Shown one piece after another: positions 35,770 to 37,969 of a stretch of 64,000 nucleotides of DNA (the first letter of the stretch is position 1; each line of letters opens with the position of its first letter). Under the pieces are notes generated by a model that saw only the letters and a list, made by a program, of their open reading frames with translations, had not been told where the DNA came from and searched no databases. Made by a program: the position numbers and the translations under genes. Source of the stretch: a virus. Taxonomy: Duplodnaviria; Caudoviricetes. The stretch lies in IMG/VR virus record IMGVR_UViG_3300033075_001674, positions 1-64,000 of that record; one strand, written 5' to 3'.

Positions 35770-37220
35770 TGAAGCTGGCCGACCTCCGCACCGATCCGCT
35801 GCCGCACCAGGAGCGGGTGAAGGAGCGCCTGAAGGGCGACCACCCCGGTCTTGTGGCGGTGCATGGCCTGGGGTCCGGCAAGACCCTCACGGCAATCAAC
35901 GTCCAGGACAGCCTGCGAGCCCCGGCGACTGTGGTCGTGCCCGCGGCGCTGAAGGAGAACTACCGGAAGGAGCAGAGGAAGCACCTGATCGGGGACCCCC
36001 CGCCCACGGAGCTGCAGACGATCCAGGCAGCTGCCTCGCGTAGGGGGGCCACGCCCAACGAGCTGCTGGTGGTGGATGAGGCGCACAAGCTCCGGGACCC
36101 GAACTCGGCTTCGTACCGGGCGATCCGCGACACGAAGCGAGACAAGACGCTGCTCCTGACCGCCTCCCCTTTCTACAACCACCCGCACGACCTCTCACCG
36201 CTGATCAACCTCGCGGCTCAGCAGGACCTGCTCCCCCTCGACCGGAAGAAGTTCGAGGACAAGTACATCGTCCACGAAAGGGCCCGACCGACCTTCACCC
36301 AGATGCTCCGGGGGGTGACCCCCGGAGAGATCCCCCATCTCAACCCGGCAACCGCGGGGGAGCTGCGGAAGATCTACAAGGACTGGACGGACTACCACCC
36401 CTCCTCCCAGGAGGGCTTCCCCCGGGTACGCCGGGAGGACGTGGAGGTCCTGATGTCCCCCGCGCAGAGGGACGTCTACAACACGACGCTCGACAAGGCG
36501 CCCTCCTGGGTGGCGGCCAAGGTGCGAAGCGGCATGCCTCCCTCCAAGCAGGAGATGTCGAACATGGCCGCCTTTCTGAGCGGCCCCCGGCAGGTCGGGG
36601 TCAGCACCGCTGCCTTCTCTCAGGGGGAGGTCCAGTCCCCGAAGATCGACAAGGCATTCGAGCGCATGCAGGCGCTGCTGTCGGGGAACCCCCGCGCCAA
36701 AGGGATCGTCTACTCGAACTACCTGGAGAGCGGGCTCTCCCCCTACAAGCGGAAGCTGGAGGCGGCGAAGATCCCCTTCGGGGAGTTCACCGGGGAGCTG
36801 AGCCCAAAGGAGCGGGACCAGATGGTCCGTGACTACAACGCCGGGAAGCTGCGCGCGTTGCTGCTGTCCAGCGCCGGGGGGGAAGGTCTGGACCTCAAGG
36901 GTACCCGGCTGGTCCAGATGCTTGAACCGCACTGGAACCAGGAGAAGCTCAAGCAGGTGGAGGGGCGGGCGATCCGCTACAAGAGCCACGAGGGCTTGCC
37001 CCCGGAGGAGCAGGAGGTCCTGGTCGAGCAGTACCTGTCGCACCTGGAGCCGAAAACGCGGGAGGGCCTGGCCGCCCTCCTCTTCGGCAAAGAGAGGAAG
37101 AACCGCGCCATCGGCGCGGACGAGTACCTCCACAACATGAGCCGCTCGAAAGGTCGGCTCATAGACGAGTTCCGAGCCCTGCTCCCGCAGCCACCCTTGA
37201 CGGGGCAGGCGGCTTCGTTA
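35766..37220 (+). CDS. SNF2-family helicase (ends at TTA 37218-37220; TGA two codons later)
   Basis: HGLGSGKT; VVDEAH; LLTASP..N; AGGEGLDL; EPHWN....QVEGRAIR. N-terminus is MKLA. Confidence 0.9.
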
Positions 37221-37231
37221 CGATGAGGCAC

Positions 37232-37276
37232 ATGCACTCGTAGCTGCACGCAGCCAGAGATCCTCCGGTGTTTTTA
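37232..37276 (+). other. leaderless uORF/leader peptide MHS[TAG]LHAARDPPVF[TTA]
   Basis: TACGAT(37219)-N7-ATG; TAG 37241; RDPP motif; TTA 37274. If TTA is read through, the frame stops at TGA 37313, overlapping the next ATG. Confidence 0.55.
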
Positions 37277-37311
37277 TTTCGTAGCCATCCACCTCTACGA
37301 CGGAGACACCG

Positions 37312-37611
37312 ATGAAGACTCTTCCAGAACAGATTGAGGAACACGAGACGTCGCAGCACGTCTTGAGACAGCTGGCGTTGGTACACACCGGACCTGCCCG
37401 GCACGCCTACAACATGCAGCGCCTCGCCCGCAAGGCTTCGGGGCGCGTTCTCTACCTCGCCCTCGCCCTCCTGCGAGGAGTCCCGTACAACGCGCTGGAG
37501 CGGACCTGTGCTGTGCCGCCCTCGGCCTCCGAGATTGCTCAGCTCGCCGGAGTGGGGGAGGAGGTGGCCCTTGGCTGGCTGGAACAAGCTGCGTGTCGTG
37601 ACGCTGCGTGA
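37312..37611 (+). CDS. conserved-type phage protein preceding Pth2
   Basis: GGAG SD; R...LA.ALLRG.PY..LE motif. Confidence 0.7.
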   Translation: MKTLPEQIEEHETSQHVLRQLALVHTGPARHAYNMQRLARKASGRVLYLALALLRGVPYNALERTCAVPPSASEIAQLAGVGEEVALGWLEQAACRDAA

Positions 37612-37969
37612 AGGGTAGGTCGGGTTCCGGGGAGCGCAGGCCATCCACGGAGTCCTGGCCTTCGCCGCAGAACACCCGAAGGAGGAGCAGGCGTGGCGCC
37701 TCTCCTCGAACACCGTCGTCTGGCTAGAGGCGGATGCCGACGAGCTGCAGCAGCTGCTCGACAGTGCCCGAGCCGCCAAAGTGAAGGTGAGCACCTTCCA
37801 CGAACCAGACCTTGCGAACCGACTGACCGTCGTGGCACTCAGCCCCTGCACTCGCGCGTTGAAGCTGACGCGAGGGGTGCCCCTGGCCGGGGTAGTTCAA
37901 GTGGCAGAACACGGGATTCTAAATCCCGACGTGAGGGTTCGAGTCCCTCCCCTGGCTCCGATGAAGTAG
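37571..37969 (+). CDS. peptidyl-tRNA hydrolase, Pth2-like, with internal TAG (37616-37618)
   Basis: GGAGGAGG SD plus TTG start. Reads MAGWNKLRVVTLREG*VGFRGAQAIHG...SNTVVWL...FHEPDLANRLTVVALSP...VPLAG, matching the KL.V..R.D...G...AQ..H and F.EPD....T...P pattern of the phage Pth2-like family. Confidence 0.8.
37886..37957 (+). tRNA. amber suppressor tRNA, anticodon CUA (37919-37921)
   Basis: Complete cloverleaf: acceptor GCCGGGG/CCCTGGC; D-stem GTTC/GAAC; anticodon stem CGGGA/TCCCG with loop TTCTAAA; 4-nt variable loop; T-stem GAGGG/CCCTC with TTCGAGT; discriminator U; CCA not encoded. Confidence 0.92.

What the first reader, a model, noticed from the sequence alone, without database searches (positions are those of the whole stretch)
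37219..37969. Candidate code-switch operon: TAG/TTA sensor leader, 99-aa protein, TAG-interrupted Pth2 and amber suppressor tRNA
Seen: about 750 bp hold a promoter-like TACGAT, a uORF containing both odd codons, an unknown 99-aa protein, a Pth2-like peptidyl-tRNA hydrolase whose codon 16 is TAG, and a tRNA with anticodon CUA. Established: Pth enzymes release peptides from dropped-off peptidyl-tRNA, and CUA tRNAs decode UAG. Inference: Pth2 can be made only once UAG is read as sense, so it depends on the adjacent tRNA or on loss of RF1 function. Pth2 could then free finished proteins from ribosomes halted at UUA. That would couple TAG-to-sense and TTA-to-stop in one module. The 99-aa protein is a candidate ribosome- or release-factor-binding partner.
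Basis: partly seen in the sequence, partly recalled or inferred. Interest (0 to 1): 0.92.

Follow-up and report, generated by a model that had tools for sequence, protein, structure and literature searches.

The report
Stop-readthrough-gated phage suppressor tRNA operon
A high-GC phage that uses the normal genetic code carries a small operon whose two proteins are probably made only while the operon's own UAG-reading tRNA overrides that stop codon, through a ribosome-stalling leader and then a second UAG inside the hydrolase gene. I found no published description of such a switch.

Summary
That covers a sigma-70-like promoter, a short leader ORF with TAG, a 99-aa ORF, a Pth2-fold gene with TAG at codon 16 and a sound tRNA(CUA).

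Comparison with about 14 divergent phage lineages changes the reading. The unit is a conserved operon: leader, small helical protein, overlapping Pth2-like gene, suppressor tRNA.

In 10 of 11 leaders a start codon and 0-5 codons are followed by a stop cognate to that locus's suppressor (TAG/CUA seven times, TGA/UCA once, TAA/UUA twice). An R-x-P-P ribosome-arrest motif follows, and the sequence at or just after its Pro codons pairs with the small ORF's Shine-Dalgarno. So readthrough leads to arrest, which frees the ribosome-binding site.

Pth2-like genes carry an in-frame cognate stop in four lineages, at different variable positions. The window's TAG persists in two independent metagenome strains.

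The genome is not TAG-recoded. The link to TTA-as-stop is not supported, because the cassette occurs in phages with ordinary TTA use. The roles of the hydrolase and the 99-aa protein remain inferred.

This scan had already found the same leader design on other phage DNA. I reached it independently and agree. I found no published description.

The parts
37197..37224 (+). sigma-70-like promoter TTGACG-16-TACGAT, overlapping the end of the SNF2 helicase gene. The in-frame TTA at 37218 is the T before the -10 hexamer plus its first two bases.
   Evidence: 9 of 12 consensus matches; 1 site found against 0.1 expected. Similar TTGACN-17-TAnnnT sites precede the leaders of L001, L004 and L007 (read).
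37232..37243 (+). Mini-ORF ATG-CAC-TCG-TAG of the leader, probably at or near the transcript's 5' end. UAG at 37241-43 is the first gate.
   Evidence: The same design (start, 0-5 codons, then a stop cognate to the locus's suppressor) is found in 10 of 11 lineages.
37244..37315 (+). Readthrough part of the leader peptide (L-H-A-A-R-D-P-P...). The RDPP arrest motif is at 37256-37267. The frame ends in TGA 37313-15, which overlaps ATG 37312.
   Evidence: RDPP, RAPP, RGPP or RSPP stands at this place in every lineage. These motifs are reported as arrest-competent or arrest-permissive in PMC12992588 and PMC10951233. A strain variant has a 1-nt insertion after 37289, so the part after RDPP is not under coding constraint.
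37266..37311 (+). Hairpin whose 5' arm (starting in the last Pro codon) pairs with the SD region (GGAG, 37302-05) of the 99-aa ORF.
   Evidence: MFE -25.3 kcal/mol, z -2.36; in all 10 leaders the SD window pairs with a segment from 8 nt inside to 2 nt beyond the end of the Pro-Pro codons.
37312..37611 (+). 99-aa all-helical protein of a rare phage family. Its function is unknown.
   Evidence: the family stands next to Pth2-like genes or suppressor tRNAs; pLDDT 91.3, six helices; no clear fold match. Pfam and PHROGs: no hit.
37571..37969 (+). Pth2-like gene. TTG start inside the 99-aa ORF (41-nt overlap). Homology ends at about 37897. The frame continues through the tRNA to TAG 37967-69.
   Evidence: PF01981 at 21 bits (cut-off 23); relatives at 30-32 bits; family profile against archaeal Pth2 structures, E 4e-8; model pLDDT 94.8, TM 0.75-0.80 to 2zv3, 1q7s, 3erj and 1xty.
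37616..37618 (+). In-frame TAG, codon 16 of the Pth2-like gene: the second gate. It lies in the loop between beta-1 and alpha-1 at a variable alignment column.
   Evidence: Retained in two independent strains. Relatives have A, D, S, P, G or I at this position.
37886..37959 (+). Amber suppressor-type tRNA, anticodon CUA, anticodon loop UUCUAAA, discriminator U73, no encoded CCA.
   Evidence: It is the only tRNA in the 108-kb record. Suppressor tRNAs stand at the same place in the relatives.

Best explanation
The stretch is one operon built around a phage amber-suppressor tRNA. It reports on, and depends on, that tRNA's activity.

Transcription starts at the promoter at 37197-37224. Ribosomes translate a mini-ORF (M-H-S) and meet UAG. 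If a release factor wins, translation ends, and a hairpin keeps the Shine-Dalgarno of the 99-aa gene paired.

If the suppressor tRNA reads UAG, the ribosome goes on for eight codons and arrests on Arg-Asp-Pro-Pro, a RAPP-type arrest motif. The arrested ribosome covers the 5' arm of the hairpin and frees the Shine-Dalgarno. The 99-aa protein is then made.

The Pth2-like gene starts inside the 99-aa gene. In this phage it holds a second UAG at codon 16. Full-length hydrolase therefore needs a second readthrough, so it is made at a lower level and depends more steeply on suppression.

Shown here: the anatomy, its conservation, the co-variation of leader stop with anticodon, the Pth2 fold, and the persistence of the TAG. 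Inferred: arrest itself, SD unmasking, and what the proteins do.

My best guess for the proteins is that the Pth2-like enzyme recycles peptidyl-tRNA. This would come from ribosomes that read through stops, and from the arrest leader itself. The helical protein would be its partner or a regulator.
For: Leader design in W, L001, L002, L004, L007, L011, L013, L015, L016 and L017: a start, 0-5 codons, a stop, 4-12 codons, then R-[DAGS]-P-P (the same call also reports a second, unrelated TGA-RAPP match further upstream in L002).

The stop is TAG where the tRNA is CUA (7 lineages), TGA where it is UCA (L015) and TAA where it is UUA (L016, L017).

In all 10 leaders the predicted fold pairs the SD window with a segment that starts between 8 nt inside and 2 nt after the end of the Pro-Pro codons (window z -2.36; L001 has a 16-bp perfect stem).

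Background in this genome: only 3 'start, stop, R[AGDS]PP' sites in six frames of 108 kb. The other two lie inside coding frames.

RAPP and RGPP are robust arrest cores that tolerate varied N-terminal context. RDPP and RSPP are permissive (PMC12992588).

In-frame cognate stops in the Pth2-like gene: window TAG at codon 16; L011/L012 TAG at codon 34, seen in two samples; L031 TAG; L015 TGA beside two tRNA(UCA). Each is at a different, variable column, and the neighbouring genes are uninterrupted.

The window's TAG is kept in strains from two other studies. Beta-1 of the fold lies upstream of the TAG, and there is no later start codon until codon 71.
Against: There is no experiment and no RNA data.

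Some leader folds are no better than shuffles (L011 and L013 z -0.3, L016 z -0.9).

L009 is an exception. Its RAPP frame has no start or cognate stop, and its tRNA is not called by ARAGORN.

Nine or ten lineages have an uninterrupted Pth2-like gene, so the second gate is optional and could be a tolerated mutation.

The tRNA's amino-acid identity and charging are unknown; discriminators differ among lineages (U, G, A).

The phage family lacks the Lys of the archaeal Gly-Lys loop. It has Glu where archaeal Pth2 has the conserved Asp, so hydrolase activity is not assured.

The window scores 21 bits on PF01981, under the cut-off of 23.

The Pth2 frame has no stop before the tRNA. Processing of the tRNA would leave a non-stop message, and I cannot say how that fits.
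Confidence: 0.7

Rival explanations
1. The leader switch is real, but the TAG inside the Pth2-like gene is only a nonsense mutation. Either it is tolerated because a suppressor tRNA is co-expressed, or the gene is decaying. It is not a selected second gate.
For: Most lineages (L001, L002, L004, L007, L009, L013, L017, L025, L028) have no internal stop. All four stops lie at variable positions, where any residue would do. That also fits neutrality.
Against: There are four independent events, and all are cognate to the local suppressor, including TGA with UCA. There is no non-cognate stop and no evident frameshift in the 13 lineages whose gene could be read whole; L050's copy looks truncated (62-aa ORF). 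In high-GC DNA, TGA would be the commonest chance stop. The TAG is kept in diverged strains from three studies, and L011/L012 show theirs in two samples. In each locus the Pth2-like gene is the only interrupted gene.
Confidence: 0.2
2. In this phage TAG is a sense codon and TTA a terminator, and the Pth2-like enzyme frees finished chains from ribosomes halted at UUA.
For: TTA sits at the natural end of proteins in two homology tests. The first is 14035, where no standard stop separates a 113-aa gene from a sigma-factor gene that relatives keep as separate genes, and GC3 falls from 0.92 to 0.50 after the TTA. The second is 48889. In-frame TTA is rare (18 in 31,938 codons) and half lie in the last 60 codons.
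Against: Apart from Pth2, no in-frame TAG was found in any gene with a coding signature. TAG at 31405 sits at a gene boundary that a relative also has. Near gene ends TTA is as frequent out of frame (9 and 11) as in frame (9). The TTAs at 37218 and 48889 belong to -10-like hexamers (TTACGAT, TTAGGAT). The latter is conserved in L056, where a normal TAG follows one codon later. The cassette occurs in phages with ordinary TTA use: 12 per 1445, 12 per 794 and 95 per 1742 codons. Pth2 enzymes act on free peptidyl-tRNA, not on ribosome-bound chains (established knowledge of the family).
Confidence: 0.05
3. The leader hairpin controls the operon without translation of the mini-ORF, for example as a plain SD-masking or transcript-stability element. 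On this view the start, stop and RxPP string is incidental.
For: SD-sequestering hairpins are common. The fold z-scores of some leaders are weak.
Against: The motif recurs in 10 of the 11 leaders examined despite unalignable nucleotide sequences (L009 differs). The stop co-varies with the anticodon across three stop types. The arrest motif always sits immediately 5' of, or inside, the anti-SD arm. The genome background is about 3 sites per 108 kb in six frames.
Confidence: 0.04
4. The TAG at 37616 is a sequencing or assembly error.
For: It is a single site in a metagenome-derived record.
Against: Contigs from two further studies (X2 covering 37245-37749, X3 covering 37480-37629), which differ from the window at other positions, show the same letters at 37616-18.
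Confidence: 0.01

Closest known systems
RAPP/RGPP-type regulatory arrest peptides (ApdA, ApdP, ApcA; SecM with RAGP; Streptomyces RAPP/RGPP uORFs; PMC7897499, PMC10951233, PMC12992588)
   Same: An R-x-P-P core sits at the end of a short upstream ORF. The arrest site lies next to an RNA helix that hides the next gene's ribosome-binding site. The same four variants (RAPP, RGPP, RDPP, RSPP) are those reported as arrest-competent or permissive.
   Different: Known examples monitor protein export or insertion through an N-terminal signal, and arrest is relieved by pulling force. Here the peptide before the motif is only about 8-17 residues. Whether the motif is reached at all is decided by an in-frame stop codon matched to a phage suppressor tRNA. 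The setting is a phage, and the regulated genes are a Pth2-like hydrolase and an unknown protein.
prfB (RF2) autoregulation through an in-frame UGA
   Same: An in-frame stop early in a message measures the balance between termination and an alternative event, and sets expression of a translation factor.
   Different: prfB uses a +1 frameshift and senses RF2. Here the alternative event is decoding by a suppressor tRNA, followed by peptide-mediated arrest and SD unmasking. This comparison rests on my own knowledge of prfB, not on a tool result.
AMD1 stop-codon readthrough followed by a C-terminal arrest peptide (PMC13025110)
   Same: Ribosomes that read through a stop run into an arrest sequence. 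Readthrough is thereby converted into a stall with regulatory effect.
   Different: AMD1 is eukaryotic. Its readthrough is by near-cognate tRNA, the stall lies 384 nt downstream, and queued ribosomes silence the same mRNA. Here the stall is predicted to activate a downstream cistron.
Suppressor tRNAs of stop-codon-recoded phages and their standard-code relatives (bioRxiv 10.1101/2021.08.26.457843)
   Same: A phage-encoded tRNA reads a stop codon. Standard-code phages with suppressor tRNAs are known and have been discussed as precursors of recoding.
   Different: Those phages are low-GC gut phages with many recoded genes. This one is 65% GC with a single recoded gene. That paper has no mention of a hydrolase (word search) and describes no leader switch.
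PTH2 genes of jumbo phages and mycobacteriophages (PMC7824862; Myrna gp84 and ScoobyDoobyDoo gp79)
   Same: The same Pth2 fold family occurs in phages, and recycling of peptidyl-tRNA has been proposed for it.
   Different: The published view links it to repair after tRNA cleavage. Linkage to a suppressor tRNA, the partner small protein, the gated leader and internal cognate stops are not described there.
Phage lambda bar minigenes and host Pth
   Same: A very short ORF in a phage transcript has effects that depend on peptidyl-tRNA hydrolase.
   Different: bar minigenes are toxic by peptidyl-tRNA drop-off and are not known to gate a downstream gene or to involve a suppressor tRNA. This comparison rests on my own knowledge only.

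Membership tests
Peptidyl-tRNA hydrolase PTH2 (PF01981) | Sequence match to the family model above the curated cut-off | tested here: inconclusive
   The window protein (TAG read through) scores 21 bits against a cut-off of 23. Relatives L004, L009 and L011 score 30-32 bits. The family profile against archaeal Pth2 chains gives E 4e-8 over the full length.
Peptidyl-tRNA hydrolase PTH2 (PF01981) | Pth2 alpha/beta fold | tested here: met
   Model pLDDT 94.8 and pTM 0.88. The top 12 Foldseek hits are all Pth2 entries or uncharacterised archaeal homologues (2zv3, 1q7s, 3erj, 1wn2, 1rlk, 1xty), with TM 0.75-0.80 and probability 1.00.
Peptidyl-tRNA hydrolase PTH2 (PF01981) | Conserved active-site residues (the Lys of the Gly-Lys loop and the Asp of the D-A-G motif; their catalytic role is from memory of the Sulfolobus enzyme) | tested here: inconclusive
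   In the profile alignment the Gly-Lys loop is shortened by two residues and the Lys is not conserved. The window has F-R at that place. The Asp aligns with the invariant Glu78. Gln23, His26, Asp80 and Thr86 are invariant in the phage family.
Peptidyl-tRNA hydrolase PTH2 (PF01981) | Hydrolysis of N-blocked aminoacyl-tRNA | not testable with these tools
   This needs an enzyme assay or complementation of a pth(ts) strain.
RAPP-type regulatory arrest peptide | R-A/G-P-P-like core at the C-terminal end of a short ORF upstream of a co-directional gene | tested here: met
   RDPP at 37256-67, 45 nt before the 99-aa ORF. RAPP, RGPP, RDPP or RSPP stands in the same place in 10 lineages.
RAPP-type regulatory arrest peptide | The arrest site is placed so that a stalled ribosome opens a structure masking the downstream ribosome-binding site | tested here: met
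   This is met by prediction only. The SD window pairs with a segment from 8 nt inside to 2 nt beyond the Pro-Pro codons in all 10 leaders. The window z-score is -2.36.
RAPP-type regulatory arrest peptide | N-terminal export or insertion signal that makes it a monitoring substrate | tested here: not met
   Only 3 codons and a stop precede the 8-residue run-up to RDPP, so there is no room for a signal. It works like an arrest leader but is not a Sec/YidC monitoring substrate.
RAPP-type regulatory arrest peptide | Demonstrated translation arrest | not testable with these tools
   This needs toeprinting or peptidyl-tRNA detection.
Nonsense suppressor tRNA | Canonical cloverleaf with an anticodon complementary to a stop codon | tested here: met
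   Rfam tRNA 64.2 bits with all 71 model positions matched. ARAGORN reads anticodon CUA at position 34.
Nonsense suppressor tRNA | Aminoacylation, and which amino acid is attached | tested here: inconclusive
   The best full-length phage matches are tRNA-Gly at 74%. It has U73, whereas relatives have G73 or A73. The internal stops lie at variable columns, so no residue can be inferred.
Stop-codon-recoded phage (TAG read as sense genome-wide) | Many genes with in-frame TAG, and low coding density under the standard code | tested here: not met
   Genes of 3017, 1319, 1307, 1237, 1132, 1034 and 1030 aa hold no TAG. A scan for TAG with coding signature on both sides found only a gene junction at 29023.
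TTA reassigned to stop (as in NCBI table 23) | In-frame TTA confined to protein ends, and specifically in frame | tested here: inconclusive
   9 of 18 in-frame TTA lie in the last 60 codons, but so do 9 and 11 out-of-frame TTA. Two belong to -10-like hexamers. The one at 14035 stands where a stop is missing.

The most novel reading that the evidence does not exclude
The operon is a self-calibrating controller of stop-codon suppression. The leader measures readthrough, and the helical protein and the Pth2-like enzyme act back on the suppressor tRNA or on arrested and readthrough ribosomes. The effect would be to hold suppression at a level the phage tolerates and the host does not. In this high-GC lineage the same enzyme might in addition release chains from ribosomes idling on the near-unused UUA codon that stands at some gene ends, such as 14035. 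That would make UUA a terminator in practice.
Probability: 0.12. Interest if true: 0.95.

Novelty: new variant of a known kind. Interest (0 to 1): 0.8.

Why it matters
Phage suppressor tRNAs in standard-code phages have had no known target. This operon gives them one, and suggests that phages measure and regulate stop-codon readthrough.

It would be the first arrest-peptide switch I know of whose input is decoding of a stop codon. The design is compact (about 80 nt) and modular, and it works with all three stops.

It links a phage Pth2-like hydrolase and an unknown protein family to suppression. It may also show an early step on the road to stop-codon recoding, with one gene recoded and the tRNA already present.

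As a tool, such leaders could report suppressor activity in cells.

Tried and rejected
Searches for relatives:
- Single-protein scans of IMG/VR with the Pth2-like and 99-aa proteins found no relatives. A four-sequence alignment also found none.
- The nine-sequence alignment was too diverse for pattern scans.
- Relatives cannot be drawn for a virus record.
- No RF-1 domain was found in the record, which is only 59% complete, so this says little.

Tools and data not available:
- No RNA holder is listed for the stretch.

The 99-aa protein:
- No Pfam or PHROG family.
- The ESM Atlas gave only weak ParB-HTH-like resemblance, TM 0.47-0.59.
- Foldseek gave nothing at E <= 0.001.
- The best VIA-align Z was 6.2, to generic helical hairpins. 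No fold is assigned.

Ideas that did not hold up:
- 'TAG at 31405 splits a domain': homology to the relative ends about 35 residues before the TAG, and the relative's gene ends at about the same place.
- L031's TAG aligning with the invariant Trp: the alignment there is gapped and ambiguous.
- tRNA identity from acceptor stem or discriminator: heterogeneous and unresolved.
- ORF-coverage comparison of genetic codes is uninformative at high GC.
- Two other 'start, stop, RxPP' sites in the genome (108015 on the plus strand, 11143 on the minus strand) lie inside coding frames and are chance.
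Full report
**What the window is.** The window is the first 64 kb of a single 108,475-bp virus record. It is 65% GC, and CheckV estimates it 59% complete.

The finding lies between an SNF2-family helicase gene (35766-37226) and a 1307-aa baseplate-J-like gene (37980-41903). Most other proteins have no family.

**The observation.**
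- A sigma-70-like promoter, TTGACG-16-TACGAT, lies at 37197-37224. One such site was found against 0.1 expected.
- The leader holds TAG at 37241-43 and TTA at 37274-76.
- The 99-aa ORF is 37312-37611.
- The Pth2-like frame starts at TTG 37571, 6 nt after AGGAGG. It meets TAG at 37616-18 (codon 16) and has no further ATG, GTG or TTG until 37781.
- The tRNA at 37886-37959 has anticodon CUA and scores 64.2 bits on Rfam's tRNA model. It is the only tRNA in the record.

The Pth2 frame has no stop before the tRNA. It runs through the tRNA to TAG 37967-69.

**The frame is continuous across the TAG.**
- tblastn alignments to phage 'peptidyl tRNA hydrolase' genes begin 10-11 residues upstream of the TAG.
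- The closest relative (65% identity, locus L001) is uninterrupted, with GCT (Ala) at that position.
- The family profile matches archaeal Pth2 structures over the full length, E 4e-8.
- The AlphaFold model (pLDDT 94.8) has the Pth2 fold, with TM 0.75-0.80 to 2zv3, 1q7s, 3erj and 1xty. It places strand beta-1 (residues 7-12) before the TAG, which sits in the following loop.
- Contigs of about 97% identity from two other studies cover 37616-18 with no change. The TAG is therefore neither an error nor private to one sample.

**The genome is not recoded.** Genes of 1030 to 3017 aa contain no in-frame TAG. TGA is the main stop, and TAG ends roughly ten credible genes.

A scan for TAG flanked on both sides by the strong coding signature (GC3 about 0.85) found only a gene junction at 29023. 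The claim that TAG 31405 splits a domain is not borne out.

**The cassette is a conserved unit.** The 99-aa protein has about ten related clusters among 1.84 billion representatives. Looking up where these, the Pth2-like relatives and similar CUA tRNAs are encoded gave about 14 divergent phage lineages. These range from 24 to 74% GC.

Most of them show the same order: small helical protein, Pth2-like gene starting inside its 3' end, then a suppressor tRNA.
- The tRNA is CUA in most lineages.
- In L015 it is UCA, in two copies, with a phage tmRNA nearby.
- In L016 and L017 it is UUA.

**The leader.** The leaders do not align as nucleotides, but they share one design:
1. a start codon;
2. 0-5 codons;
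3. a stop;
4. 4-12 codons;
5. Arg-x-Pro-Pro.

The motif is RDPP here and in L004. It is RAPP in L001, RGPP in L002, L007, L013, L015 and L016, and RSPP in L011 and L017.

The stop matches the local suppressor in all ten: TAG with CUA seven times, TGA with UCA once, TAA with UUA twice. L009 is the exception; its tRNA is aberrant.

RAPP and RGPP are strong arrest cores that tolerate varied upstream sequence and resist EF-P. RDPP and RSPP are permissive variants, and all four are avoided in bacterial proteomes (PMC12992588, PMC10951233, PMC7897499).

In every leader the predicted structure pairs the Shine-Dalgarno of the small ORF with a segment that starts between 8 nt inside and 2 nt after the end of the Pro-Pro codons. 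That segment lies within the footprint of a ribosome arrested there.
- In L001 this is a perfect 16-bp stem.
- In the window it is a 46-nt hairpin at 37266-37311, with z -2.36.

In this genome, only three sites in six frames combine a nearby start, a stop and R[AGDS]PP. The other two lie inside genes.

A strain variant carries a 1-nt insertion after 37289. The peptide beyond RDPP is therefore not conserved, which fits arrest at RDPP being the functional end.

**The second gate.** Among the Pth2-like genes next to suppressor tRNAs, four lineages have an internal stop:
- the window (TAG, codon 16);
- L011/L012 (TAG, codon 34, seen in two samples);
- L031 (TAG);
- L015 (TGA, beside tRNA-UCA).

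All are cognate to the local suppressor, and all sit at different, variable alignment columns. In each locus the neighbouring genes are uninterrupted. No non-cognate stop was seen.

This favours suppressor-dependent expression of the hydrolase over decay. A tolerated neutral mutation remains possible; I put that at 0.2.

**How it most likely works.** Without active suppression the mini-ORF ends at UAG and the hairpin hides the ribosome-binding site. With suppression, the ribosome reaches RDPP, arrests, and opens the hairpin. The 99-aa protein is then made, and the overlapping Pth2-like gene is translated. In this phage full-length Pth2-like protein needs a second readthrough.

The anatomy and the co-variation are shown. 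Arrest, unmasking and the proteins' roles are inferred.

The family keeps Gln23, His26, Glu78, Asp80 and Thr86 but lacks the Lys of the archaeal Gly-Lys loop. Hydrolase activity is therefore plausible, not assured.

The 99-aa protein folds confidently into six helices (pLDDT 91.3) with no clear structural relative.

**TTA.** The coupling to TTA-as-stop is not supported.
- The cassette occurs in phages with ordinary TTA use.
- The leader's TTA is not conserved and lies in the anti-SD arm.
- Near gene ends, TTA is equally common in all three frames: 9, 9 and 11.
- TTA 37218 is part of the -10 region TTACGAT.
- TTA 48889 is part of GGTCTGTTAGGAT. That string is conserved letter for letter in relative L056, where a normal TAG follows one codon later and the next ATG lies 6 nt after TAGGAT.

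One case stays unexplained. At 14035, TTA stands where a stop is missing, between a 113-aa gene and a sigma-factor gene that relatives keep as separate genes.

**Prior knowledge.** I found no paper that describes a stop-gated arrest leader, or a link between Pth2 and suppressor tRNAs.
- The recoding survey has no mention of a hydrolase (word search).
- The jumbo-phage survey links PTH2 to repair after tRNA cleavage.
- Full-text searches returned nothing closer.

Earlier follow-ups of this scan reported the same leader design on other phage genomes. I read them after deriving it, and they agree.

Noticed in passing
window 13696-14862: The standard-code ORF fuses a 113-aa protein to a sigma factor. 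Relatives encode these as separate genes. The only candidate boundary is an in-frame TTA at 14035. A 48-nt spacer with GC3 of 0.50 and an AGGAGG-GTG start at 14086 follow it. There is no TAA, TAG or TGA in frame.
   Followed up: partly
G000 103405 (outside the window): A second same-frame case. An in-frame TTA is followed five codons later by Met and a HAD-like N-terminus (F-I-F-D-A-D-G-T), with no standard stop between the two halves of ORF 102934-103974.
   Followed up: no
window 25775-25807 and 28990-29025: Two genes end with TTA, then a GC-rich hairpin, then a T-run that ends in TTTTAGCTC. The nominal TAG stop lies in the terminator-like tail.
   Followed up: no
window 48889-48905; L056 5413-5434: GGTCTGTTAGGAT is conserved between the phages at the end of the 1319-aa gene. 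TAGGAT lies 6-7 nt before the next gene's ATG, which looks like a -10 element for a leaderless transcript.
   Followed up: partly
window 37571-37611 and relatives: The small proteins of most lineages end in Ala-Ala before TGA. That TGA lies inside the conserved Leu-Arg-Asp/Glu codons of the overlapping Pth2-like gene. A C-terminal Ala-Ala resembles the end of the ssrA degradation tag. It may instead be only a by-product of the overlap.
   Followed up: no
window 37886-37969; L001 4485-4511; L004 5581-5601: The Pth2-like frame ends inside or beyond the tRNA gene, at TAG in the D-arm in L001 and L004. Cutting out the tRNA would leave the hydrolase message without a stop codon.
   Followed up: no
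L015 5798-5947 and 6437-6816: A 47%-GC phage contig carries the same module together with two tRNA(UCA) and a phage-encoded tmRNA (tag ANDNALAAAA).
   Followed up: no
L007 5633-5705; L009 5620-5700: Two relatives have aberrant suppressor tRNAs. ARAGORN reads an 8-nt anticodon loop ('ctaa') in L007. L009 has a tRNA-like sequence with UUCUAAC that ARAGORN does not call.
   Followed up: no
L016 4001-6000: Here the small-protein homologue is followed by an ECF-type sigma factor and a NUDIX gene instead of a Pth2-like gene. It still has a TAA-RGPP leader and a tRNA(UUA).
   Followed up: no
window 27772-32058 and G000 74295-76115 (minus strand): Neighbouring genes separated only by TAG lie in the same frame, so amber suppression would fuse them. 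At about one in three TAG-ended genes, the frequency is what chance gives.
   Followed up: partly
L015 3917-3930: The TGA-type leader still contains TAGCT out of frame. TAGCT is the motif that follows the start codon in the TAG-type leaders. This hints at conversion from one stop type to another by a frame shift in the leader.
   Followed up: no
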